NCBI GenBank assembly: GCA_949358305.1
Contig: OX442314.1
Coordinates: forward strand, 372,001-436,000
Direction: 5' to 3'
DNA length: 64,000 bases
Source: Strigamia acuminata
Lineage: Eukaryota
This document shows, one piece after another, positions 19,001-63,000 of this stretch. Under the pieces are notes generated by a model. It ran no database searches. It had not been told where the DNA came from and was given only the letters and a program-made list of their open reading frames with translations. Position 1 is the first letter of the stretch. The number at the start of each line of letters is the position of its first letter. The position numbers were made by a program, and so were the translations under genes.

Positions 19001-22000
19001 TAGACCTTGAGTTCACTGATTTGATCAAAGAGATAAAAAAGAATCCAACATCCAACATCAAATACAAGGTGGAACCATCCAAAAACGGAAAATCTACTAT
19101 TGTTGTCTACATTAATGGAAAACCGAAGATTTTGAAAGACCAAACCCCTGAAGCTATCAAGTTTCTGATAAAAGTAACAAAAAATCCAAAGTTGCCGATT
19201 CACATTGTCAAAGAAGAACCTAAACATGACGAACCAACTTTTGTTGTGACGGACGAAGAGACAAACACTCCGATAACAGTAGACCTTGAGTTCACTGATT
19301 TGATCGAAGAGATAAAGAAGAATCCAAAGTCAAACATCAAGTACAAGGTGGAACCTTCTAAAAATGGAAAATCTAACATTATTGTCTTTATTAATGGAAA
19401 ACCAAAGAAGTTGAAAGACCAATCTCCTGAAGCTATCAAGTTTCTGATCAAAGTTACCAAAAATCCAAAATTGCCGATTCACATTGTTAAAGAAAAACCT
19501 GGACATAAAGAACCACACCATGAAAAACCTGGACATAAAGAACCTCACCATGAAAAACCTGGACATAAAGAACCTCACCATGAAAAACCTGGACATAAAG
19601 AACCTCACCATGAAAAACCTGGACATAAAGAACCACACCATGAAAAACCTGGACATAAAGAACCACATCATGAAAAACCTGGACATAAAGAACCACACAG
19701 AAAAGAACATAAGCCCAAGGATGTTATTCATGTTATTTCACCTGGAAAGACTTCAACCGATCCCATTATTTCAATACCAAAGAATCAATTGGCACTTATC
19801 CAGACAATTAAATCAGCTCCTCAATTATCCATTTCCATTGCTCCAGACGGTCCAAATTTCAAAATTACTGTCAGTGATGGTCAAGATACCAAAACCTATC
19901 CAGATATTACTCCTGAATTACTGAATAAGTTAATTACTATTAGGAATCAAAAGGATTTACCATTTGAAATTACCCCTTCAGATGATCCAAAGAAGGTAAA
20001 CATTAATGTTCCAAATAAGAAAAAACCAGATGTCGAAAATATTGATATTGATATCGATTATCTGAAACCTTTGGAAATTGTAAGACATCAACCAGATACT
20101 GAGATTGAAATTAAGCCAGACAATGAAGGTACTTTTACAGTAACAATCAAACCAAAAGATGGAAGCAAACCTCACACCTTGAAGCATGTGCATCCAAATG
20201 TTTTGAATTTGATCAGCAAGCTGAAAACAACTCCACACGTACAATTCAGAGTAAAGTCAGACAAGCGTGGAAAGATTCAATTGGTCGTACCAAAACACCA
20301 ATCGCAACCTGTTCATACAAAACTAACTCCAGAGATCATCGATTTAATAAAGAACATCAAACAAAAACCACAACCGAAAGTTTCATTCAAACCAGAAAAA
20401 CCGGGAACTTTTACCGTTGTTGTGCAAAATGGTAAAAAACCAGAGAAAGAGTACAAGCATATTAGTCCCGAATTGATTCCAGTTATCACCAAATTATACA
20501 GTGAACCTACTGTAGAATATGAAATCAAACCGGGCAAAGATGACACAATCGAATTTGTTCCAACTGAACCAAGTAGCAACAGCCATCGCTATGAAGTGAA
20601 GCCTAATGTTCTAGATATCATTAGAGATATTAAACAAAATCCAGATACAGAAATCAACGTCAAGCCAGGACCAGACCACACCTTCGATATTAAAACCAAA
20701 GAACCACACAAGAAGCCAAAGACTTATCCTCATGTCAACCAAGAGACATTAGACTTGATCATAGATTTGAAGAGTCATCCAGATGTTTCTTTCACTGTTA
20801 AACCAACACCGAAAGGTAACTTTTACATCACGGTACCAAAATCAAATGTCAAAGAAGATAATGTGCAAATAACACCGGATGTTCTGGAATTGATAAAACT
20901 TCTCCATTCTCCAAAGGATGTTAAGCTTAATATCAAACCACAAAAAGATGGAGCATTCACTGTCATTGTCAAAGATGGTAAAAAAGAGCATGTCTATCCG
21001 AATATTCCAAAAAGAGTATTGCCAGTTGTTATAAAATTGTATAAAAATCCTCACAGAAACATACAATTGAAGCCAACAAGTGACAATCAAATCTATGGTA
21101 ATGTGCCCGAAGACCTGCCTAAAACTACGACAGCTGTGGTTAACAAAGAAGATGTGGATTTGATCCATCACATTAAACGACATCCGCACACAGATGTCAC
21201 TATTAAGCGTGACAGAAAAAATCGACCCACGGTTGTAGTTGGTCACGGTCCAGACAGAGAGACATATCCTCGTGTTGCTCCTAATATTGTTAACCTTGCC
21301 ACTAAGTTACTCACTGAACCAAAACTTCCATTCCATATTTATACTGGTAGAGATGGAAGACATGTCCTGACTATTCCAGTTCGACCAAAAGAGTTAATAG
21401 TTCCAAATGTATCCAAAGATTTGCTTAAATTTGTTGACAAACATCGCTCTCATCCAAATCTTGAAGTGGTCGTGACCAGTTCTGAGATTCCAGACCACTA
21501 TGACGTAATATTCCAAGAGCAAAACAAACCAATTAAACATTTTAAACATCTAGAACCCAAGATTGTTCAATTAGTCGTGGAATTGTTTAATGCACCAACC
21601 ACGGAGTACCGCGTCCAGCCACAACCTGATGGAAAGTTAACAGTCAGACCATCCAGAGATGACGTACCAACATTTGATGTGCCAATTACTCCAAAAGATC
21701 TATTGTTGATTCGGGACTTCAGAAACCCAAAACTCAACTCTGTCATTGTTTCACCAGGTAGCAAACCAAACACCTACAAGGTTGTCTTTGATGACCTTTA
21801 TGACCGCTCAAATCCACTCTCTGAGGACAATGTCGAACCCTTATTCCTTAACTTTCTCGTCCGCTTGTACACTGAACCAAGTCTTCCACTAAAGTCGGCC
21901 GTTGACGAAGATGGACATTTAATTGTAACTGCACCGAAAAGAGTTTCTCACAACATTTTACACGATGTAAGCCCAGAAGTACTAAACTTTCTGACCAAGC

Positions 22001-23190
22001 ACAAACCAACTCCCAAGGATACATTTTCCATTGTGTTGGATAAGAAAAAGCCGCATTCGACAGAGCCTGATTCTTACACTTTTGATCTTAATGGCAAAAA
22101 GTTTCCTCATCAGTCGCCTACCACCGTTCAATTAGCAAGTATTCTGCTTTCTCAGCCTAAGTTACATACAAGAATTTTGAATGAAAGGGATGGCAAAGCT
22201 ACCGTAGAAATTACTGCACACAGACCAAATCTGGTTTTCAGAAATGTTCATCCAGCCTTCTTGAAGACTTCACAGATAGCACGGCATAGTCCTAATGTGG
22301 AACTTTCGATCACCCGAAACCCAGATAATGAAATCAACCTTGTAATTTCAAATGGACCGAATAAGCTGATAATTGAAAATCTTTCACCTATTATTACTCA
22401 GCTGTTTGTGGCTATGTTCAGTAGACCGGAATTCCCGTATAACTTTTATATAGATGAGGACAATTCTGTGACTATGGTTATCAGGAAAGATAGCTTGCAT
22501 CCAGTTTTCTCTCACATTAAACCTGAATTTTTTGATTTTGTCAAAAAAGTGCGAATTTCCAAGCTTTTTAACATTGTGATAAAGCATGATGAAGGTGCTT
22601 ACGAAGTGGAAGTAACAACTCACAATGACAAGCCAAGAACTTTCCAACTGACACCTGAAGAACTTCAATTGCTCGTTCTCTTTGCTACTTATCGAGATTT
22701 GACTTTCAAAGAAAACAAGGAAAAAGATGGAACAACCCTGGAAATTCCTGTTGTCATTCAAGCCAGCTCTACTGTACTGGATTTTGCTAAACTTTGTGCT
22801 GCTACAAAAGTCCATTCGTTCCCAGAATACAAAGAAACGGATGTCAAAGAACCAACTGAAGAACCGAGTGATGAACCCGAGTATCGACTGAGACCTGAGC
22901 TAGTTTTTGAACCAAAAATTGTTTTGAGACCAGAGTACCGAAGGAGACCTAATTACAGACGTCAATTTGACAGCATTACGAGAGATTATAATAATGCCAA
23001 AAGAAATTATGCCAAACATCCTGGAAGACTGGAAGTTGGACATTTTGAACGGCCACGACATCACACCCGCAGACACCATCGTCCCCAAGGACACGAACTG
23101 TATTACAAATTCAAGAAGGAAGGTGCCTACGACACTTGCAAATGTAACGAAGCTCATAGAAGTACCTCTGAAAGATTCAGAGAATTTTAA
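16075..23190 (+). CDS. Giant secreted repeat protein, copy 1 (~2337 aa; exon 1 16075-16135, exon 2 16238-23190)
   Basis: Exon 1 MKMFLRRERHTWLFVVLQLS joins in phase via a GT-AG intron to VIGLISSYN..., forming a signal peptide; 7-kb open exon; AATAAA ~40 nt after the stop. Confidence 0.9.
19492..19701 (+). repeat. Coding 30-bp VNTR (EKPGHKEPHH) x7
   Basis: Counted directly. Confidence 0.95.
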
Positions 23191-23829
23191 TTGCAATGTT
23201 TTAAAGAATCTGTACATCCCTCAGACTGAAATAAAGTAGTTTATAGAAGCATAGCAATTGATCATCTTTCTTGTCTTTAAATAATTTCATTTTTGTAGTT
23301 TTTACAGGTCCTACGTGGGTTTTATTGAATGACTTATTCTTACAATAAAGATCCTGAGGAGTTCAATTCGATAAAATAAAATAAAAAAAGGATTGGGAGA
23401 GGAACGGAAAAAGAAAAGAGGACTCGATTACGTTAGAGCATTCAATACTTAGAACTGTGGCCCTAATTCCAGCCGTATCACTGGTGTAATGGCACAAGAA
23501 AGTTGCCCATAACACCAGAATTGTAATCTAACTAAGCCAAAACAACCAATAAATAACTAAACCTTTGATTACCTGCCAAAAGAAACCAACAAACCGTTTG
23601 ATTGATTAAAAGGGAAAAAGCTTATTTTAGCAAATAAAATAAATATTTTATTACCATATAAATAAAATCCATTATTCTAATCACCTTTTACACTGAAATT
23701 CATTGAAAAAAAAACAGAACTACTTTTCCGCAAAGTAGAGCACAGTTCACAGTTAGGACAACATTATATCAGTTCACAAAGTATACCAAGACATGTTTGT
23801 TGCAAAGAGGAACTTATTTTCTAGCATCT

Positions 23830-24132
23830 CTTATAATTGGCTACGATATACGATATGCAAACAGCCCGTCTGAAAGGCACCCAGCATTGTGCTCGCAGTA
23901 ACATCTTTAACCGGGATCAAATCAACCATTCCTGAAATGAACTCCAGGACTATGAAGATGTAACAGAACCCTCCGCCGAAGACACAAAACGACCCACATG
24001 ATCCGCGTACAGTTTCTTCCCGAACTTTGCTGCCTTGATCGGATGTAGCAAGCCTGTAGGATTTAAGTTGGTAAATTTAAACCGTTGACAGACTTTGTAG
24101 GATTTACGCCAGGCCGTGACCTCCAAATTCAA
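23830..24132 (-). pseudogene. Decayed retroelement integrase fragment (partly duplicated at ~41987-42124)
   Basis: KSYKVCQRFK...PTGLLHPI...LYADHVGRF...YIFIV...IPVKDV resembles the zinc finger/core start of gypsy integrase; frameshifted. Confidence 0.55.
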
Positions 24133-24229
24133 TTAGTTTGCGGTATCTTCACACTGTACAAATTGACAGATTTAAAAAAGAATCTCTCAAAGGATAAAAT
24201 TAAAATTCTTTTTTTTTAAATATAACATT

Positions 24230-24375
24230 TTATTTTCTGGATTATTTATTTTTTGAATATTTTATTTTATTTTTTGAATATTTTATTTTATTTTTTGAAT
24301 ATTTTATTTTATTTTTTGAGTTTTTTATTTTATTTTTTGGAATGTTTTATTTTATTTTTTGGAATATTTTATTTT
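24230..24375. repeat. ~21-bp T-rich minisatellite (ttttattttattttttgaata)
   Basis: Directly visible. Confidence 0.85.
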
Positions 24376-24591
24376 GTAAAATAAATATCGGAATGATATT
24401 ATTGGAAGTAACTGAATTCACTGTAATTGTAATAAAATAAAGATAAGAGAAGTTGGCTGTGAAGAATCTTTAATGAATAATCAATTCTCAGTTACAAGAC
24501 TCCTTTATATACTGGTATGTGGAATATTATGTAACATTATCGATGGTCGTAAAGCTGGAAAGCTGGAGAAGTATTTTTTGGAGTAAACATC

Positions 24592-25256: not shown

Positions 25257-25295
25257 TGTAAGCATCATGTCATATCATTTTCTTAGAGTCACCTA

Positions 25296-25714: not shown

Positions 25715-25749
25715 TAGTGACCTTTTCTGTCATCTTTAAGTTCGTTTTT

Positions 25750-26330: not shown

Positions 26331-27678
26331 AATCCCTGCTTGTTGTAAGCGACGCTAGAGCGCACTTGTTACCAAGATGGCAGGTCAAAACGACGCGCAA
26401 TGTAAAATTACCGTTAAAGGCAAGTAAACATCTTTCGTTTTACATTTTACAACTCGACTTGGACTCAAATTCGACCACAAGGAGTCAGCCGACATCTTGT
26501 GTTACATGGCGCAGTCGACATTCGAAAAGAATTTTGTGAAGTGAAATATGAGAAATTTTTGAACTTGAAGGGGAAGAAATTTTTGTGTGAACAATACTAC
26601 ATTTTCGTGAGTGAAAAATGATGTCACGGGAACAGTAAGACAAAATTCGATCGCTTTTACTGCCTAAACGTTTCATTTTATCAACATTTTCGCCAAAAAA
26701 CGGACTATTTCACCAAACGGCAATTTCAACTCCCGGTTCAAAATTTTGACACCAGATGGCGACCCAACCCATGAATCAGCTACGATACGATCAGCTGATG
26801 GAATTGGACATCAAAGACCTTCAAGATGAATGTCAACTAAGAGGAATTTATCGAAGGGTATGCATTGATCGCCAGACCGCTTTCGTAGCTGTTACGGGGC
26901 AGGAAAACGGAAATTGCCAAAGTTGCCCGCGGAAAATCCACCAACAATAAGATAGTAGGATGGACAGCGGAACACTCTGAAGCAACACGAATCCTCAAAG
27001 AAAAATTGAAGCCACCACCGATTTTGGAACATTTTTCACCGGAAAGGAAAACACACATCCATGAAATTGTCATCGAATACGCAAGCCAAACAACCACGCC
27101 ACGTGAAGAAACAATGCATTTCAACTTACTCCAGTGATGGGAAAATTCCGGATTTATGTCATTGGATTGGAGAAAGTGCACGTGTGGACGGACAATTGGT
27201 GCGTTTCTTACATCAATGCATCCAAGCAGATAAATAAAAAATTTGCACGCATTGCATTGGATCTTCAGGAACTGCCACTACAGATCCACCACAAAGCAGG
27301 ACAAGCAAATGTGGTTGCGACGCGCTATCGAGGCCGCCATTATGCGCTGCTTTGGTGTTGGTCGCAGAAGAATCGAGATTGGAGCTGTTACAACGTTCGG
27401 ATGCGGAATTACTGGAGATTTCGACAATCATTAAAGGGAAACCGACGGAAAACCCAAGATACCTGAAATTGTCTAAGGAATTTCACATTAATTTGTCGGG
27501 CATACTGTGTCGTTCGTACACAAATGCAAAAGAGTACACCAAAGTTCAAATCGTTGTTCCAACATCGCTTCGTGGGGACATTTTGAACAAATTTCACAAC
27601 GAAAATGGGCACATGGATAAAGCACGCACGAAAGCCAGCATCCAGGCCAAACTCTGGTGGAAAACTCCAGACAAAGAT

Positions 27679-30905: not shown

Positions 30906-30920
30906 GAGTATATGCAAATA

Positions 30921-34179: not shown

Positions 34180-37100
34180 ATGAAGATGTTTCTCCAAAGA
34201 GAGAGACATACTTGGCTGTTCGTGGTTTTGCAGCTTTCAGGTAATTTTTTTCAGTTTGGAAAGAGAAAACTTCTTGTTTGACATTGAAATAATTATAAAT
34301 CATGATTCATACATTTATTTCAGTTATTGGATTGATATCATCGTACAACTTGATTCCAAAACACTTCAATGATGTAAATAAGGCTTTGCACCATGTAGTA
34401 GGCCATGTACAACATCGAATTCCTTCAGCAACCACAACTCATAGTCGAACATATTCCACTTCATCGTCTTCTGGTGGAACGTCTTGGAGTGGATCTTCTT
34501 CCAGTGGATCATCTTCAAGTGGATCATCTTCTGGTGGATCTTCTTCTGGTGGATCATCTTCCAGTGGAACTTCTAGTAGATCATCTTCCAGTCAAAGTGT
34601 TGAATATTTCACTGTTGATCTGCAGTTTGTTCAACTGATTCAAGAAGTTAGAGCCTCAACTAAAGCGGTTAAGGTCCATGCTCAAAGACATCAAGATGGC
34701 CTCTACAAACTGACAGTAACCACTGACAAAGGAACAAAAACATATGACAAATTATCAAAAGCCACGTTTGACTTGTTTGCCAAATTACTTAAAAATCCAA
34801 GATTGCAAATTAAAGAAGTAGGAAAAGTTGGGTCAAAAGTTAAAATTGCTGTTTCTCCTGAACCACCAAAACCAACAAATATTTTTAAAATAAAATCCCA
34901 ACTTTTGGATGCAGTCAATAGAATAAGAAAAGGAGGTTATTCAATTCAAATATCAACAAAAGGCAATAAGTACACAATAACTGTGACTAATAAGTCAAGC
35001 GGAAAAAAGGAAACCTATGCTGATCTACCGGCAAATACTGGCGAAGCTTTTATTCGATTGCTCAAAGATCCTTCTTTACAGTACCAAGTTATAGGCAAAT
35101 CAGGAGACGAAGATGTATTGTTTATTCCCAACTACAGTGGAAAGCAAACAAAAATAACAGTTAAATCGCTGTTTTTGACATTGCTAAAACAGGTGCGAAA
35201 TCATCCGAGCAATCATATAAGAATTCAACCCGGAACCGATGGTAAATATGAGTTGACCGTTGAAGATGGAAAAAAACAGTCCAAAACCTACAAGCACATA
35301 GACCCAAACCTACTCTTTTCTTTTGTCGAACTTATTAAGAATCCTAATTTGCAATATAAAGTCTCGCCAGCTGCTAATGGAGAATTTACTGTGACTGTTG
35401 TGGATCAACCTGACGACCTCAACACGGGGACAATTGGAAAAGGAATTGAGTACTACATCGTTAAACCACAATTCGTTCAACTGATCAGGCAAGTCCGGAA
35501 ATCAACTAAAGCGGTTAAAATCAAATATCAGCCAGAAGACGATGGCTTGTTGACGGTAACCTTAACGACTGACAAAGGAACAAAAACCTACAAGAAAATA
35601 CCTAGAGACATTTTATCCTTGTTTGTAAAATTACTCAAGAATCCAACTTTGCAAATCACGGAAGTGGGAAAAGAGGGTTTCAACGTAAAAATTGCTGTAT
35701 CTCCTGAACCGCCAAAACCATCAAATATTATTACGGTGAAGCCCGAATTCTTAGAAGTCGTAAAAAAAATAAGGAAAGGAGGCTATTCAATTCAAATAGC
35801 AACATCAGGTGATACGTACACAATAACTGTAACTGACGACTCAAATGGAAAAAAGAAAACCTATTCAGATGTGCCAGCTAAAATTGGTGATGCTTTTATT
35901 CGATTGGTTAAGAATCCCTCATTGCCGTATGAAATTTTAGGCAAATCAGGAGATAAATCTTATTTGTTTATTCCTGACAATAGTGCAGCGCAAACAACAT
36001 TTACAGTGAAACCACTGTTTTTGACATTGCTGAAACAAGTACGAGAACATCCAGAAAATAGAATTCAAATTCAACCAGGAACCGATGGCAAATATGAGTT
36101 AACTATCCATGAAGGGAAGAAAGGATCTAAAACATACAAGCACATTGATCCAAATTTGCTATTTGTTTTTATTAAACTTATTAAGAATCCTGATTTGCAA
36201 TTTAAGCTTTCACCAGCAGCTACTGGACAATTTACGATTACGCTTGAAGAGCAACCTGAGGACCTCAACATTGGGACCCTTGATTCTGATAAATTTTTAG
36301 AATTAATAACCAAGGCTAAGAGTGATCCATCATACAACTTGAGAATTGGCACTGGGAAAAATGGTTTGGAGCTTGTCATCACTCACAATGGCAAAACAAA
36401 AAAATATCCATTACCGGCTAAATTCTTAAACATTATTGTTCAATTGCTTCAATCGCTTAGGACTCCAAAAACAGTCAAGCATAATGGCCAAACAACTTTT
36501 ATTCTGTCGGACGAAGAAACACAAACACCAATCCAAGTAGACGTCGAGTTCACTGATTTGATTGAAGAAATCAAGAAGAATCCGACATCAAACTTCAAGT
36601 TCAAGGTTGAACCTTCCAAAAATGGAAAATTCAATGTTATTGTCTTCATCGATGGAAAACCAAAAGAATTGAAAGACCAATCTCCTGAAGCTGTAAAGTT
36701 TCTGATGAAAGTAACAAAAAATCCAAAACTACCAATTCATGTCACCAAAGAAAAACCTAAACCACAACAAGATCAAACTACTTTTATTGTGGCGGACGAA
36801 GAAACAAACTCATTGATTGAAGTCGACGTTGAGTTCACTGATTTGATTGAAGAGATAAAGAAGAATCCAAAGTCAAACATCAAGTACAAGGTGGAACCTT
36901 CTAAAAACGGAAAATCCAATATTATTGTCTACATTAATGGAAAACCAAATAAGTTGAAAGACCAATCCCCTGAAGCTATCAAGTTTCTGATCAAAGTAAC
37001 AAAAAATCCAAATTTGCCGATTCACATTGTCAAAGAAGAACCTAAACCTAGAGAACCAACTTTTGTTGTGACGGACGATGAAACAAACACACCGATAACA

Positions 37101-40100
37101 GTAGACCTTGAGTTCACTGATTTGATCAAAGAGATAAAAAAGAATCCAACATCCAACATCAAATACAAGGTGGAACCATCCAAAAACGGAAAATCTACTA
37201 TTGTTGTCTACATTAATGGAAAACCGAAGATTTTGAAAGACCAAACCCCTGAAGCTATCAAGTTTCTGATAAAAGTAACAAAAAATCCAAAGTTGCCGAT
37301 TCACATTGTCAAAGAAGAACCTAAACATGACGAACCAACTTTTGTTGTGACGGACGAAGAGACAAACACTCCGATAACAGTAGACCTTGAGTTCACTGAT
37401 TTGATCGAAGAGATAAAGAAGAATCCAAAGTCAAACATCAAGTACAAGGTGGAACCTTCTAAAAATGGAAAATCTAACATTATTGTCTTCATTAATGGAA
37501 AACCAAAAAAGTTGAAAGACCAATCCCCTGAAGCTATCAAGTTTCTGATCAAAGTTACCAAAAATCCAAAATTGCCGATTCACATTGTTAAAGAAAAACC
37601 TGGACATAAAGAACCACACCATGAAAAACCTGGACATAAAGAACCACACCATGAAAAACCTGGACATAAAGAACCTCACCATGAAAAACCTGGACATAAA
37701 GAACCACACCATGAAAAACCTGGACATAAAGAACCTCACCATGAAAAACCTGGACATAAAGAACCACACCATGAAAAACCTGGACATAAAGAACCACACC
37801 ATGAAAAACCTGGACATAAAGAACCACACAGAAAAGAACATAAGCCCAAGGATGTTATTCATGTTATTTCACCTGGAAAGACTTCAACCGATCCCATTAT
37901 TTCAATACCAAAGAATCAATTGGCACTTATCCAGACAATTAAATCAGCTCCTCAATTATCCATTTCCATTGCTCCAGACGGTCCAAATTTCAAAATTACT
38001 GTCAGTGATGGTCAAGATACCAAAACCTATCCAGATATTACTCCTGAATTACTGAATAAGTTAATTACTATTAGGAATCAAAAGGATTTGCCTTTTGAAA
38101 TTACCCCTTCAGATGATCCGAAGAAGGTAAACATTAATGTTCCAAATAAGAAAAAACCAGATGTTGAAAATATTGATATAAATATCGATTATCTGAAACC
38201 TTTGGAAATTGTAAGACATCAACCAGATACTGAGATTGAAATTAAGCCGGACAATGAAGGTACTTTTACAGTAACAATCAAACCGAAAGATGGAAGCAAA
38301 CCTCACACCTTGAAGCATGTGCATCCAAATGTTTTGAATTTGATCAGCAAGCTGAAAACAACTCCACACGTACAATTCAGAGTAAAGTCAGACAAGCGTG
38401 GAAAGATTCAATTGGTCGTACCAAAACACCAATCGCAACCTGTTCATACAAAACTAACTCCAGAGATCATCGATTTAATAAAGAACATCAAACGAAAACC
38501 ACAACCGAAAGTTTCATTCAAACCAGAAAAACCAGGAACTTTTACCGTTGTTGTACAAAATGGTAAAAAACCAGAAAAAGAGTACAAGCATATTAGTCCC
38601 GAATTGATTCCAGTTATCACCAAATTATACAGTGAACCTGCTGTAGAATATGAAATCAAACCAGGCAAAGACGAAACAATCGAATTTGTTCCAACTGAAC
38701 CAAGTAGCAACAGCCATCGCTATGAAGTGAAGCCTAATGTTCTAGATATCATCAGAGATATTAAACAAAATCCAGATACAGAAATCAACGTCAAGCCAGG
38801 ACCAGACCACACCTTCGATATTGAAACCAAAGAACCACATAAGAAGCCAAAGACTTATCCTCATGTCAACCAAGAGACATTAGACTTGATCATAGATTTG
38901 AAGAGTCATCCAGATGTTTCTTTCACTGTTAAACCAACACCGAAAGGTAACTTTTACATCACGGTACCAAAATCAAATGTCAAAGAAGATAATGTGCAAA
39001 TAACTCCGGATGTTCTGGAATTGATAAAACTTCTCCATTCTCCAAAGGATGTTAAGCTTAATATCAAACCACAAAAAGATGGAGCATTTACTGTCATTGT
39101 CAAAGATGGTAAAAAAGAGCATAACTATCCGAATATTCCAAAAAGAGTATTGCCAGTTGTTATAAAATTGTATAAAAATCCTCACAGAAACATACAATTG
39201 AAGCCAACAAGTGACAATCAAATCTATGGTAATGTGCCCGAAGACCTACCTAAAACTACGACAGCTGTAGTTAACAAAGATGATGTGGATTTGATCCATC
39301 ACATTAAACGACATCCGCACACAGATGTCACTATTAAGCGTGACAGAAAAAATCGACCCACGGTTGTAGTTGGTCATGGTCCAGACAGAGAGTCATATCC
39401 TCGCGTCGCTCCTAATATTGTTAACCTTGCCACTAAGTTACTCACTGAACCAAAACTTCCATTCCATATTTATACTGGTAGAGATGGAAGACATGTCCTG
39501 ACTATTCCAGTTCGACCAAAAGAGTTAATAGTTCCAAATGTATCCAAAGGTTTGCTTAAATTTGTTGACAAACATCGCTTTCATCCAAATCTTGAAGTGG
39601 TCGTGACCAGTTCTGAGATTCCAAACCACTATGACGTAATATTCCAAGAGCAAAACAAACCAATTAAACATTTTAAACATCTAGAACCCAAGATTGTTCA
39701 ATTAGTCGTGGAATTGTTTAATGCACCAACCACGGAGTATCGCGTCCAACCACAACCTGATGGAAAGTTAACAGTCAGACCATCCAGAGATGACGTACCA
39801 ACATTTGATGTGCCAATTACTCCGAAAGATCTATTGTTGATTCGGGACTTCAGAAACCCAAAACTCAACTCTGTCATTGTTTCACCAGGTAGCAAACCAA
39901 ACACCTACAAGGTTGTCTTTGATGACCTTTATGACCGCTCAAATCCACTCTCTGAGGACAATGTCGAACCCTTATTCCTTAACTTTCTCGTCCGCTTGTA
40001 CACTGAACCAAGTCTTCCACTAAAGTCGGCCGTTGACGAAGATGGACATTTAATTGTAACTGCACCGAAAAGAGTTTCTCACAACATTTTACACGATGTA

Positions 40101-41321
40101 AGCCCAGAAGTATTAAACTTTCTGACCAAGCACAAACCAACTCCCAAGGATACATTTTCCATTGTGTTGGATAAGAAAAAGCCGCATTCGACAGAGCCTG
40201 ATTCTTACACTTTTGATCTTAATGGCAAAAAGTTTCCTCATCAGTCGCCTACCACCGTTCAATTAGCAAGTATTCTGCTTTCTCAGCCTAAGTTACATAC
40301 AAGAATTTTGAATGAAAGGGATGGCAAAGCTACCGTAGAAATTACTGCACACAGACCAAATCTGGTTTTCAGAAATGTGCATCCAGCCTTCTTGAAGACT
40401 TCACAGATAGCACGGCATAGTCCTAATGTGGAACTTTCGATCACCCGAAACCCAGATAATGAAATCAACCTTGTAATTTCAAATGGACCGAATAAGCTGA
40501 TAATTGAAAATCTTTCACCTATTATTACTCAGCTGTTTGTGGCTATGTTCAGTAGACCGGAATTCCCGTATAACTTTTATATAGATGAGGACAATTCTGT
40601 GACTATGGTTATCAGGAAAGATAGCTTGCATCCAGTTTTCTCTCACATTAAACCTGAATTTTTTGATTTTGTCAAAAAAGTGCGAATTTCCAAGCTTTTT
40701 AACATTGTGATAAAGCATGATGAAGGTGCTTACGAAGTGGAAGTAACAACTCACAATGACAAGCCAAGAACTTTCCAACTGACACCTGAAGAACTTCAAT
40801 TGCTCGTTCTCTTTGCTACTTATCGAGATTTGACTTTCAAAGAAAACAAGGAAAAAGATGGAACAACCCTGGAAATTCCTGTTGTCATTCAAGCCAGCTC
40901 TACTGTACTGGATTTTGCTAAACTTTGTGCTGCTACAAAAGTCCATTCGTTCCCAGAATACAAAGAAACGGATGTTGAAGAACCAACTGAAGAACCGAGT
41001 GATGAACCCGAGTATCGACTGAGACCTGAGCTAGTTTTTGAACCCAAAATTGTTTTGAGACCAGAGTACCGAAGGAGACCTGATTACAGACGTCAATTTC
41101 ACAGCATTACAAGAGATTACAATAATGCCAAAAGAAATTATGCCAAACATCCTGGAAGACTGGAAGTTGGGCATTTTGAACAGCCACGACATCACACCCG
41201 CAGACACCATCGTCCCCAAGGACACGAACTGTATTACAAATTCAAGAAGGAAGGTGCCTACGACACTTGCAAATGTAACGAAGCTCATAGAAGTACCTCT
41301 CAAAGATTCAGAGAATTTTAA
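34180..41321 (+). CDS. Giant secreted repeat protein, copy 2 (~2352 aa; exon 1 34180-34240, exon 2 34324-41321)
   Basis: Same exon structure, splice sites and TATA box as copy 1; intact ORF. Confidence 0.9.
37593..37832 (+). repeat. Coding 30-bp VNTR (EKPGHKEPHH) x8
   Basis: Counted directly. Confidence 0.95.
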
Positions 41322-55400: not shown

Positions 55401-56599
55401 CACAAATTCCTTTTTGAATATGTAGTAATTTTGTTAATTTTCTTAACTTTGGCCAGGGCAACACGAGAAAGACGTGGAGTTCAACTTCAAGCAGATCAAA
55501 CTGCAGACGTTCGCGGGCCACACGGCCAACGTGCGCTCCATCTGCTGCCTGGACAACGAGATTTCCTTCATGACGGGCAGCAAGGACAAAAGCGTCAAGC
55601 TGTGGTCGCTGCGCAGCCACGGCGACGGCTCGGGCCGCTCGAGCTGCCAGTGGACGTACCCGCACCACAAGAAGAGCGTGTTCGCCGTCACGTTCCTCGA
55701 CTCGCTGCGCAGGGTGGTGTCGTGCGACGGCACGGTCCACCTGTGGGACCCGTTCGTGGGCTCGTCGCTGCGCCAAATGGAGCCGGTGCGCAACAGCTGC
55801 GTGTCGGTGCTCGCGTGTCTGCCGTCGCCCAGCTCGGTGCTCGTCACGGCTGCCAGCGACTCCAACCTGCGCTTTTTCGACGTGCGTTCCATGAAATACA
55901 TTCACGAGTACAAAGTGAGCGTCGCTCCCGCAGGTGAGTGATTGATGAAATATATTTTTTCCAGTTCTAAGCATTTAATTTTAATTTTAAATTTTTCTAG
56001 GGTTGATTCGGTGCGTGTCGGTCAGTCCCGATGGCCACTGGCTGTGCGTGGGCCACTCGTCCGGCGTGATCTCCATCTTGGACGTGCGCACGGGCCTCAT
56101 TTCGGCCATCTGGAAGGGCCACGAGGGCGAGATATTGAAAGTATTTATTTTCTATTTAATTTTTGATTGAATTTAATTTAATTTTTAATTTGTGCAGATC
56201 AGGGCATACAATAAAAATACGTTCGTCACGTCGTCGCTCGACCAGCACGTGTCGGTCTGGAATGCGGACGACGGCAAGTTGCAGCACAATCTGAGGGGCC
56301 CGACGGAACCCGTGCACTGCTTCGACTTCTACAGGAACGAGATGGTGTCGGCGTCGACGGCTAATCGAATCGGCGTGCACACGGCCATCGACAACCAAGT
56401 ATGGGAAATTAATAAAGTGATTTTGTCATTTTGTCATTTTGATTTATTTTTTACATTTGATTGAATTCAGGCGTCGTTTTCGAGCACTCGACTCAGGTCG
56501 GACACTTTCCGCGGGATGATTTCCGCACTCTCGATTCTTCCTCTCAACCGCCTTTTGCTATTGGGTGCTGATAATGGCAACGTTTCTCTCTTGTGTTAA
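49404..56599 (+). CDS. WDR81: WD repeat-containing protein 81 (BEACH + WD40), multi-exon
   Basis: [25 protein letters not shown] ([19 protein letters not shown]...PVLPWVMD...[40 protein letters not shown]); [26 protein letters not shown]40 repeats; end [20 protein letters not shown]. Confidence 0.95.
50300..50690. repeat. Intronic 20-21-bp minisatellite (gctgaaaaatacatttatag)
   Basis: Directly visible. Confidence 0.9.
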
Positions 56600-57059: not shown

Positions 57060-60000
57060 TTAAAATTCTCTGAATCTTTGAGAGGTACTTCTATGAGCTT
57101 GGTTACATTTGCAAGTGTCGTAGGCACCTTCCTTCTTGAATTTGTAATACAGTTCGTGTCCTTGGGGACGATGGTGTCTGCGGCTGTGATGTCGTGGCCG
57201 TTCAAAATGTCCAACTTCCAGTCTTCCAGGATGTTTGGCATAATTTCTTTTGGCAGTATTATAATCTCTCGTAATGCTGTCAAATTGACGTCTGTAATCA
57301 GGTCTCCTTCGGTACTCTGGTCTCAAAACAATTTTTGGTTCAAAAACTAGCTCAGGTCTCAGTCGATACTCGGGTTCATCACTCGGTTCTTCAGTTGGTT
57401 CTTCAACATCCGTTTCTTTGTATTCTGGGAACGAATGGACTTTTGTAGCAGCACAAAGTTTAGCAAAATCCAGTACGGTAGAGCTGGCTTGAATGACGAC
57501 AGGAATTTCCAGGGTTGTTCCATCTTTTTCCTTGTTTTCTTTGAAAGTCAAATCTCGATAAGTAGCAAAGAGAACGAGCAATTGAAGTTCTTCAGGTGTC
57601 AGTTGGAAAGTTCTTGGCTTGTCATTGTGAATGGTTACTTCCACTTCGTAAGCACCTTCATCATGCTTTATCACAATGTTAAAAAGCTTGGAAATTCGCA
57701 CTTTTTTGACAAAATCAAAAAATTCAGGCTTAATGTGAGAGAAAACTGGATGCAAGCTATCTTTCCTGATAACCATAGTCACAGAATTGTCCTCATCTAT
57801 ATAAAAGTTATACGGGAATTCCGGTCTACTGAACATAGCCACAAACAGCTGAGTAATAATAGGTGAAAGATTTTCAATTATCAGCTTATTCGGTCCATTT
57901 GAAATTACAAGGTTGATTTCATTATCTGGGTTTCGAGTAATCGAAAGTTCCACATTGGGACTATGCCGTGCTATCTGTGAAGTCTTCAAGAAGGCTGGAT
58001 GCACATTTCTGAAAACCAGATTTGGTCTGTGTGCAGTAATTTCTACGGTAGCTTTGCCATCCCTTTCATTCAAAATTCTTGTATGTAACTTAGGCTGAGA
58101 AAGCAGGATACTTGCTAATTGAACAGTGGTAGGCGACTGATGAGGAAACTTTTTGCCATTAAGATCAAAAGTGTAAGAATCAGGCTTTGTCGAATGCGGC
58201 TTTTTCTTATCCAACACAATGGAAAATGTATCCTTTGGAGTTGGTTTGTGCTTGGTCAGAAAGTTTAATACTTCTGGGCTTACATCGTGTAAAATGTTGT
58301 GAGAAACTCTTTTCGGTGCAGTTACAATTAAATGTCCATCTTCGTCAACGGCCGACTTTAGTGGAAGACTTGGTTCAGTGTACAAGCGGACGAGAAAGTT
58401 AAGGAATAAGGGTTGGATATTGTCCTCAGACAGTGGATTTGAGCGGTCATAAAGGTCATCAAACACAACCTTGTAGGTGTTTGGTTTGCTACCTGGTGAA
58501 ACAATGACAGAGTTGAGTTTTGGGTTTCTGAAGTCCCGAATCAACAATAGATCTTTCGGAGTAATTGGCACATCAAATGTTGGTACGTCATCTCTGGATG
58601 GTCTGACTGTTAACTTTCCATTAGGTTGTGGTTGGACGCGATACTCCGTGGTTGGTGCATTAAACAATTCCACGACTAATTGAACAATCTTGGGTTCTAG
58701 ATGTTTAAAATGTTTAATTGGTTTGTTTTGCTCTTGGAATATTACGTCATAGTGGTCTGGAATCTCAGAACTGGTCACGACCACTTCGAGATTTGGATGA
58801 GAGCGATGTTTGTCAACGAATTTAAGCAAATCCTTGGATACATTTGGAACTATTAACTCTTTTGGTCGAACTGGAATAGTCAGGACATGTCTTCCATCTC
58901 TACCAGTATAAATATGGAATGGAAGTTTTGGTTCAGTGAGTAACTTAGTGGCAAGGTTAACAATATTAGGAGCAACACGAGGATATGACTCTCTGTCTGG
59001 ACCGTGACCAACTACAACCGTGGGTCGATTTTTTCTGTCACGCTTAATAGTGACTTCTGTGTGCGGATGTCGTTTAATGTGATGGATCAAATCCACATCA
59101 TCTTTGTTAACTACAGCTGTCGTAGTTTTAGGCAGGTCTTCGGGCACATTACCATAGATTTGATTGTCACTAGTTGGCTTCAATTGTATGTTTCTGTGAG
59201 GATTTTTATACAATTTTATAACAACCGGCAATACTCTTTTTGGAATATTCGGATAGACATGCTCTTTTTTACCATCTTTGACAACGACAGTGAATGCTCC
59301 ATCTTTTTGTGGTTTGATATTAAGCTTAACATCCTTTGGAGAATGGAGAAGTTTAATCAATTCCAGAACATCCGGAGTTATTTGCACATTATCTTCTTTG
59401 ACATTTGATTTTGGTACCGTGATGTAAAAGTTACCTTTCGGTGTTGGTTTAACAGTGAAAGAAACATCTGGATGACTCTTCAAATCTATGATCAAGTCTA
59501 ATGTCTCTTGGTTGACATGAGGATAAGTCTTTGGCTTCTTGTGTGGTTCTTTGGTTTCAATATCGAAGGTGTGGTCTGGTCCTGGCTTGACGTTGATTTC
59601 TGTATCTGGATTTTGTTTAATATCTCTGATGATATCTAGAACATTAGGCTTCACTTCATAGCGATGGCTGTTGCTACTTGGTTCAGTTGGAACAAATTCG
59701 ATCGTGTCATCTTTGCCTGGTTTGATTTCATATTCTACAGTTGGTTCACTGTATAATTTGGTGATAACTGGAATCAATTCGGGACTAATATGCTTGTACT
59801 CTTTTTCTGGTTTTTTACCATTTTGTACAACAACGGTAAAAGTTCCCGGTTTTTCTGGTTTGAATGAAACTTTCGGTTGTGGTTTTCGTTTGATGTTCTT
59901 TATTAAATCGATGATCTCTGGAGTTAGTTTTGTATGAACAGGTTGCGATTGGTGTTTTGGTACGACCAATTGAATCTTTCCACGCTTGTCTGACTTTACT

Positions 60001-63000
60001 CTGAATTGTACGTGTGGAGTTGTTTTCAGCTTGCTGATCAAATTCAAAACATTTGGATGCACATGCTTCAAGGTGTGAGGTTTGCTTCCATCTTTTGGTT
60101 TGATTGTTACTGTAAAAGTACCTTCATTGTCTGGCTTAATTTCAATCTCAGTATCTGGTTGATGTCTTACAATTTCCAAAGGTTTCAGATAATCGATATC
60201 AATATCAATATTTTCGACATCTGGTTTTTTCTTATTTGGAACATTAATGTTTACCTTCTTCGGATCATCTGAAGGGGTAATTTCAAAAGGCAAATCCTTT
60301 TGATTCCTAATAGTAATTAACTTATTCAGTAATTCAGGAGTAATATCTGGATAGGTTTTGGTATCTTGACCATCACTGACGGTAATTTTGAAATTTGGAC
60401 CGTCTGGAGCAATGGAAATGGATAACTGAGGAGCTGATTTGATTGTCTGGATAAGTGCCAATTGATTCTTTGGTATTGAAATAATAGGATCAGTTGAAGT
60501 TTTTCCAGGTGAAATAACATGAATAACTTCTTTGGGCTTATGTTCTTTTCTGTGTGGTTCTTTGTGTCCAGGTTTTTCATGGTGTGGTTCTTTATGTCCA
60601 GGTTTTTCATGGTGCGGTTCTTTATGTCCAGGTTTTTCATGGTGTGGTTCTTTATGTCCAGGTTTTTCATGGTGTGGTTCTTTATGTCCAGGTTTTTCAT
60701 GGTGCGGTTCTTTATGTCCAGGTTTTTCATGGTGCGGTTCTTTATGTCCAGGTTTTTCATGGTGCGGTTCTTTATGTCCAGGTTTTTCATGGTGCGGTTC
60801 TTTATGTCCAGGTTTTTCATGGTGTGGTTCTTTATGTCCAGGTTTTTCATGGTGTGGTTCTTTATGTCCAGGTTTTTCATGATGTGGTTCTTTATGTCCA
60901 GGTTTTTCATGGTGCGGTTCTTTATGTCCAGGTTTTTCATGGTGCGGTTCTTTATGTCCAGGTTTTTCATGGTGTGGTTCTTTATGTCCAGGTTTTTCAT
61001 GATGTGGTTCTTTATGTCCAGGTTTTTCATGATGTGGTTCTTTATGTCCAGGTTTTTCATGGTGCGGTTCTTTATGTCCAGGTTTTTCATGGTGTGGTTC
61101 TTTATGTCCAGGTTGTTCTTTAACAATGTGAATCGGCAATTTTGGATTTTTGGTTACTTTTATCAGAAACTTGATAGCTTCAGGGGATTGGTCTTTCAAC
61201 TTCTTTGGTTTTCCATTAATGAAGACAATAATGTTAGATTTTCCGTTTTTAGAAGGTTCCACCTTGTACTTGATGTTTGACTTTGGATTCTTTTTTATCT
61301 CTTCGATCAAATCAGTGAACTCAAGGTCTACTGTTATCGGAGTGTTTGTCTCTTCGTCCGTCACAACAAAAGTTGGTTCGTCATGTTTAGGTTCTTCTTT
61401 GACAATGTGAATCGGCAACTTTGGATTTTTTGTTACTTTTATCAGAAACTTGATAGCTTCAGGGGTTTGGTCTTTCAAAATCTTAGGTTTTCCATTAATG
61501 TAGACAATAATGTTAGATTTTCCGTTTTTGGATGGTTCCACCTTGTATTTGATGTTTGATGTTGGATTCTTTTTTATCTCTTCGATCAAATCAGTGAACT
61601 CAAGGTCTACTGTTATCGGTGTGTTTGTTTCATCGTCTGTCACAACAAAAGTTGGTTCCTCATGTTTAGGTTCTTCTTTGACAATGTGAATAGGCAAATT
61701 TGGATTTTTTGTTACTTTTATCAGAAACTTGATAGCTTCAGGGGATTGGTCTTTCAACTTATTTGGTTTTCCATTAATGTAGACAATAATATTGGATTTT
61801 CCGTTTTTAGAAGGTTCCACCTTGTACTTGATGTTTGACTTTGGATTCTTCTTTATCTCTTCGATCAAATCAGTGAACTCAACGTCGACTTCAATCAATG
61901 AGTTTGTTTCTTCATCCGCCACAATAAAAGTAGTTTGATCTTGTTGTGGTTTAAGTTTTTCTTTGGTGACATGAATTGGTAGCTTTGGATTTTTTGTTAC
62001 TTTCATCAGAAACTTTACAGCTTCAGGAGATTGGTCTTTCAACTCTTTTGGTTTTCCATCGATGAAGACAATAACATTGAATTTTCCATTTTTGGAAGGT
62101 TCAACCTTGAACTTGAAGGTTGATGTCGGATTCTTCTTGATTTCTTCAATCAAATCAGTGAACTCGACGTCTACTTGGATTGGTGTTTGTGTTTCTTTGT
62201 CCGACAGAATAAAAGTTGTTTGGCCATTATGCTTGACTGTTTTTGGAGTCCTAAGCGATTGAAGCAATTGAACAATAATGTTTAAGAATTTAGCCGGTAA
62301 TGGATATTTTTTTGTTTTGCCATTGTGAGTGATGACAAGCTCCAAACCATTTTTCCCAGTGCCAATTCTCAAGTTGTATGATGGATCACTCTTAGCCTTG
62401 GTTATTAATTCTAAAAATTTATCAGAATCAATGGTTCCAATGTTGAGGTCCTCAGGTTGCTCTTCAAGTGTAATCGTAAATTGTCCAGTAGCTGATGCTG
62501 GTGAAAGCTTAAATTGCAAATCAGGATTCTTAATAAGTTTAATAAAAACAAAAAGCAAATTTGGATCAATGTGCTTGTATGTTTTAGAACCTTTCTTCCC
62601 TTCATGAATAGTTAACTCATATTTGCCATCAGTTCCTGGTTGAATTTGAATTCTATTTTCTGGATGTTCTCGTACTTGTTTCAGCAATGTCAAAAACAGT
62701 GGTTTTACTGTAAATGTTGTTTGCGTTGCACTATTGTCAGGAATAAACAAATAAGATTTATCTCCTGATTTGCCTAAAACTTCGTATGGCAATGAGGGAT
62801 TCTTAACCAATCGAATAAAGGCGTCGCCAATTTTTGCTGGCACATCAGAATAGATTTTCTTTTTCCCATTTGAGTCGTCAGTCACAGTTATTGTGTACGT
62901 ATCACCTGATGTTGCTATTTGAATTGAATAGCCTCCTTTCCTTATTTTCTTTACGACCTCTAAGAATTCGGGCTTCACTGTAATAATATTTGATGGTTTT

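What the first reader, a model, noticed from the sequence alone, without database searches (positions are those of the whole stretch)
19492..61118. His-rich decapeptide VNTR differs 7 / 8 / 19 between otherwise near-identical paralogs
Seen: (EKPGHKEPHH)n at 19492-19701, 37593-37832 and 60549-61118. Differences among internal units are synonymous (CCA/CCT/CCG, CAC/CAT), so the peptide is preserved while length varies. It is 30% His with balanced K/E. Established: His-rich tracts mediate Zn/Cu cross-linking and pH-triggered assembly in mussel byssus collagens, Nereis jaw and squid beak proteins. Inference: a length-tunable metal- or pH-responsive module that differentiates the paralogs.
Basis: partly seen in the sequence, partly recalled or inferred. 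Interest (0 to 1): 0.75.

Follow-up and report, generated by a model that had tools for sequence, protein, structure and literature searches.

The report
Histidine-rich repeat in centipede secreted protein
Three neighbouring copies of a giant, predicted-secreted centipede repeat protein carry 7, 8 and 19 copies of a histidine-rich ten-residue unit in one loop, which likely works as a pH- or metal-sensitive cross-linking stretch, although nothing about that function has been tested.

Summary
(EKPGHKEPHH)n lies in frame at 19492-19701 (7 units), 37593-37832 (8) and 60549-61118 (19, minus strand), in three paralogous two-exon genes.

- **Variation:** internal variation is synonymous except one K>Q in the first unit of copy C.
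- **Organism:** the window is eukaryotic. The only strong relatives are uncharacterised Strigamia maritima (geophilomorph centipede) proteins.
- **Protein:** about 264 kDa, basic, with a predicted signal peptide and three Cys, all near the C-end. It has no Pfam family. It is built of about 21 units of 92 aa, each made of two helix-plus-strands halves.
- **Position of the repeat:** it sits where sister units have a 4-9 residue hairpin loop, and AlphaFold2 predicts it disordered.
- **New support for a function:** two divergent S. maritima paralogs carry different His-rich tandem units (a 12-mer and a 14-mer) at or next to the same place. His-richness therefore recurs while the sequence turns over.
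- **Selection:** the paralogs are under purifying selection (dN/dS 0.10-0.14).
- **Still untested:** metal or pH responsiveness, tissue, expression, and the claim that length "differentiates" the paralogs. A and B differ by one unit. The unit counts could not be checked with the contigs on hand.

Verdict: a real, moderately interesting new variant of a His-rich coding minisatellite in an undescribed centipede protein family.

The parts
16022..16028 (+). TATATAA box upstream of gene A
   Evidence: Read directly, 47 nt upstream of the ATG at 16075. A promoter role is inferred.
16075..16135 (+). Gene A exon 1 (MKMFLRRERHTWLFVVLQLS plus 1 nt), first part of the predicted signal peptide
   Evidence: A GT follows at 16136. 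The spliced product matches the S. maritima N-terminus ...LLLLAVIGSGSSYNLIP. Splicing is inferred from sequence; no spliced read was seen.
16136..16237 (+). Gene A intron (GT..AG, 102 nt)
   Evidence: The frame is restored across the junction.
16238..23190 (+). Gene A exon 2, ending in a stop codon. The full product is 2337 aa.
   Evidence: Open frame 16213-23190. Spliced translation.
19492..19701 (+). His-rich array of gene A, 7 units
18392..19515 (+). Four 279-nt (93-aa) repeats just upstream of the array in gene A. The array sits in the last one.
   Evidence: period 279, 4.0 copies, 85% matches
23230..23235 (+). AATAAA, 40 nt after the gene A stop codon, kept in all three copies
   Evidence: A poly(A) signal role is inferred.
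34180..34240 (+). Gene B exon 1
34324..41321 (+). Gene B exon 2. The full product is 2352 aa.
37593..37832 (+). His-rich array of gene B, 8 units
57060..64000 (-). Gene C, inverted copy. Its 5' end runs off the window.
60549..61118 (-). His-rich array of gene C, 19 units. 8 of them are CCG-type units, absent from A and B.
16379..16473 (+). Ser/Gly-rich 15-nt repeat near the N-terminus of gene A. The gene B counterpart at 34463-34592 is 15 nt longer.

Best explanation
The (EKPGHKEPHH)n arrays are in-frame coding minisatellites of 7, 8 and 19 units in three paralogous genes for a ~264-kDa, predicted-secreted protein of a family so far seen only in Strigamia-type centipedes, and the tract is predicted to be a disordered loop that likely serves as a pH- and/or metal-sensitive charge and cross-link element of an extracellular material.

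Shown:
- Three intact paralogs, two in tandem and one inverted, under purifying selection.
- A protein made of about 21 units of 92 aa, each two helix-plus-strands halves.
- The array replaces the short hairpin loop between the strand LPIHIVKE and the strand DVIHVISP of the last 93-aa unit.
- S. maritima relatives have a shorter, imperfect EKP/His-rich loop there, and two divergent paralogs have their own His-rich tandem units at or next to it.

Inferred:
- The array grew and changes length by replication slippage or unequal exchange. Units homogenise within each copy (CCG units only in C, CCT units only in A and B).
- Selection keeps the peptide composition of His, Lys, Glu and Pro.
- With imidazole pKa near 6-6.5, the loop would switch from a polycation to a near-neutral polyampholyte around pH 6-7, and could chelate Zn, Cu or Ni. 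Longer arrays would give more charge or more cross-link sites per molecule.
- His clusters at the mature N-end (6 of 40 residues) and C-end (8 of 60), plus a C-terminal CxC, would add end-to-end links.

The material is unknown. My best guess is an exocrine secretion such as the geophilomorph sternal-gland glue.
For: - Arrays and unit variants.
- Gene models, signal peptide and AATAAA.
- Paralog identity and dN/dS of 0.144, 0.102 and 0.110.
- Relatives: S. maritima T1J5A2 at 72% identity over 1081 aa. A profile search of 1.84 billion representatives gave 37 hits at E<=0.001; the five best are all S. maritima.
- No Pfam family.
- Unit architecture. AlphaFold2 model of one unit has pLDDT 80 with the order H-E-E-E-H-E-E.
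- The array aligns to the 4-9 residue hairpin loops of the sister units.
- The array has pLDDT below 50 and no secondary structure.
- His-rich tandem units in relatives: P0006 has (HLTKxxPHGGKH)x4 in the same hairpin; P0007 has 13 RPTSDED-type 14-mers just downstream.
- Loop relatives in S. maritima...KPEHEKPGHKKPEHEKP... in P0005 and EKPKHKEPEHEHEKPHKKEEKP... in P0004.
- Computed charge of 8 units is +12.1 at pH 6 and +2.0 at pH 7. For 19 units it is +28.9 and +4.9.
- Composition: pI 9.4, 12% Lys, three Cys, all near the C-end.
- Literature passages: geophilomorph sternal glands discharge a proteinaceous, hardening glue, with pH 6-6.5 reported for Geophilus vittatus (PMC6023451; PMC7766067).
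Against: - No expression, tissue or protein-level data for this gene. No RNA holder was listed.
- No metal or pH measurement exists.
- Outside the array the protein is only 3.3% His, unlike Nereis-type jaw proteins, where a passage gives 16% His and 29% Gly (PMC13120676).
- Glue bands reported for other geophilomorphs are 12 and 130 kDa (Henia) and 30-67 kDa (Haplophilus) (PMC7766067 passage), not 264 kDa.
- A and B differ by a single unit, so length need not matter.
- AlphaFold2 did not model the strand after the array (DVIHVISP) as paired. Placing the array in a hairpin loop rests on the alignment to sister units alone.
- The family is known from one species in the databases searched, so its wider conservation is unknown.
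Confidence: 0.45

Rival explanations
1. The tract is only a flexible, hydrophilic spacer. Its length differences (7/8/19) are neutral products of slippage and unequal exchange between recently duplicated genes, and His-richness has no specific role.
For: A and B differ by one unit. The units are 97-98% identical, as expected for a young, fast-turning minisatellite. A second, Ser/Gly-rich minisatellite in the same gene also differs between A and B. The tract is predicted disordered.
Against: Variant kinds are 4 synonymous to 1 non-synonymous where 18% of sites are synonymous. Three different His-rich repeat units occur at or next to the same place in diverged family members. That is hard to get without selection on composition.
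Confidence: 0.3
2. The protein is a Zn-binding matrix protein of hardened cuticle (forcipule tip or claws), like Nereis jaw His-rich proteins.
For: Zinc is reported in the tarsungulum of Geophilomorpha and other Epimorpha (PMC11342574, abstract and passages). His-rich proteins bind Zn in Nereis jaws (PMC13120676, abstract and passages).
Against: No chitin-binding or cuticle domain was found. His is 3.3% outside the array. There is no sequence relation to Nvjp-1-type proteins. The unit is Lys/Glu/Pro-rich rather than Gly-rich.
Confidence: 0.07
3. The unit counts, or even the three copies, are assembly artefacts such as collapsed or expanded arrays or haplotypes placed in tandem.
For: Arrays of near-identical 30-nt units are error-prone to assemble. 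The A-B identity of 99% is in the range of allelic divergence. The counts could not be checked with raw long reads.
Against: The window has no N. The three copies have different flanks and orientation. Each array has its own unit mix: CCG units only in C (8 of 19), CCT units only in A (3) and B (2). Of the 35 exon-2 'other letters' listed for four runs of three studies, 32 are the letters of paralog B and/or C. The copy-distinguishing variants therefore exist outside this assembly.
Confidence: 0.05
4. The His/Lys-rich tract is a histatin- or kininogen-like cationic element, either antimicrobial or surface-binding. It would protect a secretion or the brooded eggs, or bind anionic surfaces, rather than cross-link.
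For: The tract is cationic below pH 6.5. The protein is basic overall (pI 9.4). The resemblance to histatins and kininogen domain 5 is recalled, not tested.
Against: There is no sequence match to such proteins in any search here. The tract is embedded in a 264-kDa repeat protein, with no sign of processing sites flanking it.
Confidence: 0.08

Closest known systems
Strigamia maritima uncharacterised proteins T1J5A2, T1J594, T1J222 (close) and T1IGR3, T1IH69, T1IH68 (divergent), UniRef
   Same: They share the signal-peptide junction (...SS|YNLIP), the Ser/Gly-rich N-region, the ~46/92-aa helix-plus-strands repeats, the conserved C-terminal tail (...ELYYKFKKEGAYDxCKC...REF in the close ones) and a His-rich tract in mid-protein.
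   Different: Identity is 62-72% for the close ones and about 25% for the divergent ones. They have one 93-aa unit before the loop where the window has four. Their loop is a short, imperfect EKP/His-rich stretch (close ones) or a 12-mer or 14-mer array (divergent ones), not a perfect decapeptide array. The divergent ones end in a Gly/Ser/Val-rich hydrophobic tail absent here. None has a described function.
His-rich metal-coordinating structural proteins (Nereis jaw Nvjp-1 / Nai11527; mussel preCol His-rich flanks; squid beak His-rich proteins)
   Same: Secreted structural proteins with stretches of 16-30% His. Terminal His clusters, as in preCols (recalled), are also present here at both ends.
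   Different: There is no sequence relation. Those proteins are Gly/Ala-rich; Nai11527 has 29% Gly and 16% His over the whole partial protein (PMC13120676 passage). Here His is confined to a Lys/Glu/Pro-rich loop of 70-190 aa in a folded 2300-aa repeat protein.
Histidine-rich glycoprotein (GHHPH repeats) and high-molecular-weight kininogen domain 5 (recalled)
   Same: Tandem short His/Pro/Gly/Lys units in a secreted protein, known for Zn- and pH-dependent binding.
   Different: These are vertebrate plasma proteins with different units and no homology. The comparison rests on recall only.
Coding minisatellites of secreted structural proteins (mucins, silk and glue proteins)
   Same: The unit length is a multiple of three, unit identity is high, copy number differs between gene copies, and larger repeats nest around the array (279 nt x4, 846 nt x2).
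   Different: The repeat here is a single loop in an otherwise folded multidomain protein, not the bulk of the protein.

Membership tests
Strigamia T1J5A2-like giant repeat proteins (uncharacterised, no Pfam entry) | Significant full-length sequence similarity | tested here: met
   72% identity over 1081 aa and 50% over 732 aa to T1J5A2. 62% over 725 aa to T1J594. The profile of the window's units hits five S. maritima proteins at E 9e-27 to 4e-132.
Strigamia T1J5A2-like giant repeat proteins (uncharacterised, no Pfam entry) | Signal peptide, Ser/Gly-rich N-region, conserved C-terminal tail with CxC | tested here: met
   The spliced N-terminus and the C-terminal tail align with T1J5A2 and T1J594. 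The signal peptide was judged by eye; no predictor was run.
Strigamia T1J5A2-like giant repeat proteins (uncharacterised, no Pfam entry) | His-rich tract in the middle of the protein | tested here: met
   Present in the window's three copies and in P0004, P0005, P0006 and P0007.
His-rich metal-coordinating structural proteins (Nvjp-1 / preCol / squid beak type) | Sequence homology to a described member | tested here: not met
   No Pfam family. No such protein among the hits. No significant PDB sequence relative.
His-rich metal-coordinating structural proteins (Nvjp-1 / preCol / squid beak type) | High His content in a Gly/Ala-rich context | tested here: not met
   The array is 30% His but only 10% Gly, with 20% each of Lys, Glu and Pro. 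The rest of the protein is 3.3% His.
His-rich metal-coordinating structural proteins (Nvjp-1 / preCol / squid beak type) | Demonstrated metal binding or pH-triggered assembly, and location in a metal-rich or load-bearing material | not testable with these tools
   Only a computed charge curve is available.
Coding minisatellite (VNTR) | Head-to-tail in-frame units of high identity | tested here: met
   Period 30, 97-98% matches, no indels. Every unit translates in frame.
Coding minisatellite (VNTR) | Copy number varies among individuals | not testable with these tools
   Only k-mer contigs of the runs were available, and none spans an array. Variation is shown between paralogs only. 6-nt shorter unit variants appear in one contig each of X3 and X4.
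Known protein folds (PDB) | Structural match of the 92-aa unit | tested here: inconclusive
   Foldseek gave no match at E<=0.001. With VIA-align over 48,161 chains the best Z is 6.0 (eL38, SRP14, FtsH periplasmic domain; residues 1-65). That is below the level the tool calls typical for models without a clear match.

The most novel reading that the evidence does not exclude
A centipede-specific family of giant secreted alpha/beta-repeat proteins carries, in one hairpin loop, a disordered His/Lys/acid-rich cassette. The cassette has been re-invented by independent tandem expansions: a 10-mer here, and a 12-mer and a 14-mer in Strigamia maritima paralogs. It is the pH/metal trigger that sets the fast-hardening geophilomorph defensive glue, and array length tunes the number of cross-links per molecule.
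Probability: 0.15. Interest if true: 0.75.

Novelty: new variant of a known kind. Interest (0 to 1): 0.45.

Why it matters
If the tract is a pH/metal switch in a secreted material, it would give a molecular handle on centipede secretions whose proteins are undescribed. It would also offer a simple, length-tunable, non-Gly His/Lys/Glu/Pro decapeptide for bio-inspired adhesives or coacervates. Whatever the function, the locus documents three things: an uncharacterised, lineage-restricted protein family built of a small repeat unit without a Pfam model; a clear case of a short hairpin loop growing into a 70-190 residue disordered insert; and recurrent, compositionally convergent His-rich expansions among paralogs.

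Tried and rejected
- **Pfam scan of the whole protein:** only sub-threshold noise. Rdx at 23.3 bits has no stretch passing on its own.
- **ESM Atlas:** the first call failed because the stored protein was too long. A 1047-aa part gave no usable hit.
- **Foldseek against PDB:** nothing at E<=0.001. It then gave a best Z of 6.0, a common small alpha/beta arrangement.
- **PDB sequence profile search:** nothing below E 0.1.
- **Weaker profile hits:** of the 32 non-Strigamia hits, I scanned 8 in Pfam. Four are bacterial MBG_2-repeat proteins and the others are PKD, He_PIG, Kelch or CarboxypepD_reg repeat proteins. I take these as hairpin-motif look-alikes, not relatives. The other 24 were not examined.
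- **Whole genome:** none is held for this window, so further copies could not be counted.
- **Earlier findings of this scan:** nothing by place or by sequence.
- **Sequencing runs:** no RNA holder was listed.
- **Run X4 cover pattern:** X4 is of unrecorded kind. In one search it had no cover upstream of about 16568. Its contig depth rose from 23 to 2077 toward the 3' end and fell to 4.6 past the AATAAA. This looks like poly(A) RNA, but absence of cover and contig depth are not usable evidence, so I make no claim on expression.
- **Intron:** no contig joined across it.
- **Array counts:** no contig spans an array, so 7/8/19 could not be verified.
- **Shorter tract in a related organism:** in run X5 (organism B), laid at 85% likeness, one contig joins 37646 to 37871, skipping 224 nt. 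X5 also has a loose end reading a diverged His-rich stretch. Run X6 (organism C) has cover over the array bins. These hint at a shorter tract in one related organism. Joints inside repeats at low likeness are unreliable, so I use this only as a lead.
- **AlphaFold2 of unit, array and next unit:** the array and the following strand came out below pLDDT 50, so hairpin closure was not shown.
- **Literature:** 'T1J5A2' occurs in no held paper. Searches on geophilomorph sternal glands and adhesive, centipede/histidine-rich/zinc/forcipule, Strigamia/secretion/proteom/repetitive and Henia vesuviana/proteinaceous glue found no paper describing this protein or the sequence of a geophilomorph glue protein. 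In the Lithobius telopodal-secretion paper (PMC11170834, passages only) 'histidine' and 'Strigamia' do not occur in the main text. Its supplements were not opened and may list large unknown proteins.


Full report
**1. Observation**

Tandem Repeats Finder finds three period-30 arrays: 19492-19698, 37593-37829 and 60552-61118, with 97-98% matches and no indels. Reading the units one by one gives 7, 8 and 19 in-frame units EKPGHKEPHH. The last unit is EKPGHKEPHR in every copy.

Among all 34 units the only kinds of change are these:
- CCA>CCT in 5 units, CCA>CCG in 8, CAC>CAT in 4 and CAT>CAC in 1, all synonymous.
- One K>Q in the first unit of copy C.
- The shared terminal H>R unit.

Only 5.33 of the 30 sites in a unit are synonymous. 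Four synonymous kinds out of five has a binomial tail of 0.004, treating kinds as independent events. The arrays also have their own make-up. CCG units occur only in C (8 of 19) and CCT units only in A (3) and B (2).

**2. The genes**

The arrays lie in three very long open frames: 16213-23190 (+), 34299-41321 (+) and 57060-63998 (-, running off the window).

- Upstream of the first two there is a TATATAA box and an ATG (16075; 34180).
- A 61-nt exon follows, ending before GT, and an AG acceptor restores the frame.
- The spliced N-terminus is MKMFLRRERHTWLFVVLQLSVIGLISS|YNLIP. It matches the S. maritima relative at ...LLLLAVIGSGSS|YNLIP. I read it as a signal peptide by eye; no predictor was run and no spliced read was seen.
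- An AATAAA lies 40 nt after the stop codon in all three copies.

Exon-2 identity is 98.99% (A-B), 97.95% (A-C) and 97.87% (B-C). One stretch of 1500 columns has no A-B difference. Nei-Gojobori dN/dS is 0.144, 0.102 and 0.110. All three copies are therefore intact and constrained. Homology between copies starts about 1.5 kb upstream and ends about 105 nt after the stop codon.

**3. Organism and family**

The window holds LTR-retrotransposon genes: RVT_1, RNase H and rve at 8262-13017, and DUF1759 at 3870-4949. It is AT-rich, so it is a eukaryote.

- The word-indexed search of 5.8 billion proteins found one relative, UniRef T1J5A2 of Strigamia maritima, a geophilomorph centipede. It is 72% identical over 1081 aa.
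- A profile of 20 of the window's own 92-aa units, run over 1.84 billion representatives, gave 37 hits at E<=0.001.
- The five best hits (E 9e-27 to 4e-132) are all S. maritima proteins without a described function. One carries an automatic 'cadherin domain-containing' name that Pfam does not bear out.
- Of the other 32 hits I scanned eight. They are bacterial MBG_2, PKD, He_PIG and similar repeat proteins, which I take as look-alikes.
- The protein has no Pfam family, and the Atlas gave nothing.

The window's species is thus a relative of S. maritima, not S. maritima itself. The family is so far known from that lineage only.

**4. Architecture**

The mature product of gene B is 2325 aa and 264 kDa, with pI 9.4 and 12% Lys. 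It has almost no Met or Trp. Its three Cys lie at residues 2222, 2336 and 2338 of the precursor.

- Iterated HMM searches within the protein find 28 significant repeat matches.
- These resolve into about 21 units of 92 aa, each made of two homologous halves.
- AlphaFold2 on one unit, with the 20 units as alignment, gives pLDDT 80 and the order helix-strand-strand-strand-helix-strand-strand.
- Foldseek finds no PDB match at E<=0.001. VIA-align over 48,161 chains has a best Z of 6.0, to eL38, SRP14 and the FtsH periplasmic domain. The tool rates this as no more than a common arrangement.
- The PDB profile search found nothing significant.

Larger repeats are nested around the array: an 846-nt duplication near the 5' end and four 279-nt units just before the array.

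**5. Where the array sits**

In the alignment of double units the array falls between the strand ...KNPKLPIHIVKE and the strand DVIHVISP. Sister units have a loop of 4-9 residues at that spot (KSGDE, EKPKPQ, EEPKPR, SDDPKK, GKDE, TSDNQ, QPDGK, ERDGK). The three preceding 93-aa units have KEKPKPQQDQ, KEEPKPRE and KEEPKHDE there. The array therefore looks like an expansion of an EKP-type hairpin loop.

AlphaFold2 of unit-array-unit gives pLDDT below 50 and no secondary structure for residues 89-175, with folded units on both sides. It also failed to place the strand after the array. Closure of the hairpin is therefore inferred from homology alone.

**6. The tract in relatives**

- S. maritima T1J594 has, at this loop, ...IHIKTEKPVNPVKPGKKTEKPVKPEEKKPEHEKPGHKKPEHEKPIINIV....
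- T1J5A2 has ...VHIVQEKPKHKEPEHEHEKPHKKEEKPKEQEHEHEKP....

An imperfect EKP/His-rich loop of about 40 aa thus predates the species split, and the window's perfect decapeptide array is a homogenised, expanded version of it.

More telling are the divergent paralogs:
- T1IGR3 has four 12-mers (HLTKDVPHGGKH type, 23% His) in the same hairpin, between ...TPHTITEH and HTLTVDKP.
- T1IH69 has a short His-rich hairpin loop. Just downstream it has 13 units of a 14-mer ending in RPTSDED (KHHKHHRPTSDEDD type). Eight contiguous units that fit a strict pattern are 26% His.

Three unrelated unit sequences share a composition of His with Lys, acidic residues and Pro, Gly or Thr, at or next to one place. This is the best evidence here that His-richness is selected.

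His is also clustered at the mature N-end (6 of 40 residues) and C-end (8 of 60). Outside the array the protein is 3.3% His.

**7. Physical chemistry (computed only)**

| Units | Net charge at pH 6.0 | Net charge at pH 7.0 |
|---|---|---|
| 7 | +10.6 | +1.7 |
| 8 | +12.1 | +2.0 |
| 19 | +28.9 | +4.9 |

With standard pKa values, the tract would switch from polycation to near-neutral polyampholyte around pH 6-7, and the size of the effect scales with n.

**8. Public runs**

Six coded runs hold part of the stretch, and none is on record as RNA.

- Contigs of four runs from three studies cover gene A.
- Of the 40 'other letter' rows shown (150 more were not shown), I dropped five that lie upstream of exon 2. 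Of the remaining 35, 32 carry the letter of paralog B and/or C. The copy-distinguishing variants therefore exist outside this assembly.
- No contig spans an array, so the counts remain unverified.
- Leads only: a contig of a related organism that skips 224 nt of the array, and cover over the array in another. See Tried and rejected.

**9. Literature**

- No held paper names T1J5A2.
- Passages in a review state that geophilomorph sternites release a fast-hardening proteinaceous glue. Bands of 12 and 130 kDa are given for Henia and 30-67 kDa for Haplophilus (PMC7766067).
- Another review gives pH 6-6.5 for the sticky cyanogenic secretion of Geophilus vittatus, and lists Linotaeniidae among the cyanogenic families (PMC6023451).
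- Zinc occurs in the forcipule tip of Geophilomorpha (PMC11342574, abstract and passages).
- His-rich, Gly-rich proteins bind Zn in Nereis jaws (PMC13120676, abstract and passages).
- The Lithobius telopodal-glue paper lists 18 unknown protein families. Its main text mentions neither histidine nor Strigamia (PMC11170834, passages), and its supplements were not opened.

**10. Reading**

Shown:
- A real coding minisatellite with conserved peptide and variable length.
- Three constrained paralogs.
- A new, lineage-restricted repeat protein with a predicted signal peptide.
- The array at a hairpin-loop position, predicted disordered.
- Recurrence of His-rich repeats in the family.

Inferred:
- Slippage or unequal exchange as the source of length change.
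- Selection on composition.
- A pH/metal-sensitive charge or cross-link role in an extracellular material, possibly the sternal-gland glue.

Not supported: that length differentiates the paralogs functionally.

Rivals are a neutral spacer (0.30), an antimicrobial or surface-binding cationic element (0.08), a Zn-cuticle protein (0.07) and an assembly artefact (0.05). I rate the finding as a new variant of a known kind, with interest 0.45.

Noticed in passing
window 16379-16473 and 34463-34592: A second coding minisatellite lies in the same genes: 15-nt units encoding Ser/Gly-rich pentapeptides of the SSSGG type, near the N-terminus. Copy B is 15 nt (one unit) longer than copy A. The S. maritima relative T1J594 has a much longer Ser/Gly run.
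   Followed up: partly
window 18392-19515, 36493-37616, 61095-62218: Four 279-nt (93-aa) repeats at 85% identity lie directly before the His-rich array. The S. maritima relatives have one such unit. The same gene also holds an 846-nt internal duplication (16499/17345, 72% identity).
   Followed up: partly
window 8262-13017 (-): A gypsy-type LTR retrotransposon in a GC-rich (about 50%) block. It has gag (zf-CCHC), RT, RNase H and integrase in three consecutive frames, so it is frameshifted or interrupted.
   Followed up: partly
window 2435-2734 and 6193-6492; ORFs 3870-6338 (+): Two direct repeats, 100% identical over at least 300 nt and 3758 nt apart, flank an ORF pair with a DUF1759 (BEL/Pao gag-like) domain. 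This looks like a young, internally deleted LTR element.
   Followed up: no
window 27238-29937 (+): A GC-rich ORF of 667 aa with a zinc knuckle and acidic 21-nt and 30-nt tandem repeats (29375-29843). An integrase zinc-binding fragment precedes it. This is retroelement debris between gene copies A and B.
   Followed up: no
window 50806-55941: A GC-rich (48-52%) block with long overlapping ORFs on both strands and no Pfam match in the five that I scanned. It is preceded by a 21-nt x 20 satellite at 50301-50723. Its nature is unknown, possibly another mobile element.
   Followed up: no
window 44008-44540, 46933-47316, 7258-7426: AT-rich non-coding satellites (22 nt x 24, 41 nt x 9.4, 20 nt x 8.4) lie in the spacers between the gene copies.
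   Followed up: no
P0006, P0007, P0009 (S. maritima T1IGR3, T1IH69, T1IH68), C-terminal 60-70 residues: The divergent family members end in a Gly/Ser/Val/Ile-rich hydrophobic tail (...SKSFGGIFGSIFGWLSSLVSGVISGAASIVSGVG...). It is absent from the window's genes and looks like a glycine-zipper or membrane- or amyloid-prone segment.
   Followed up: no
window 36900-38500 as laid (run X3, organism A): Contigs of the same organism fit this stretch at only 85-90% identity (for example 43 other letters in 326 nt). The genome probably holds further, more diverged members of the family outside the window.
   Followed up: no
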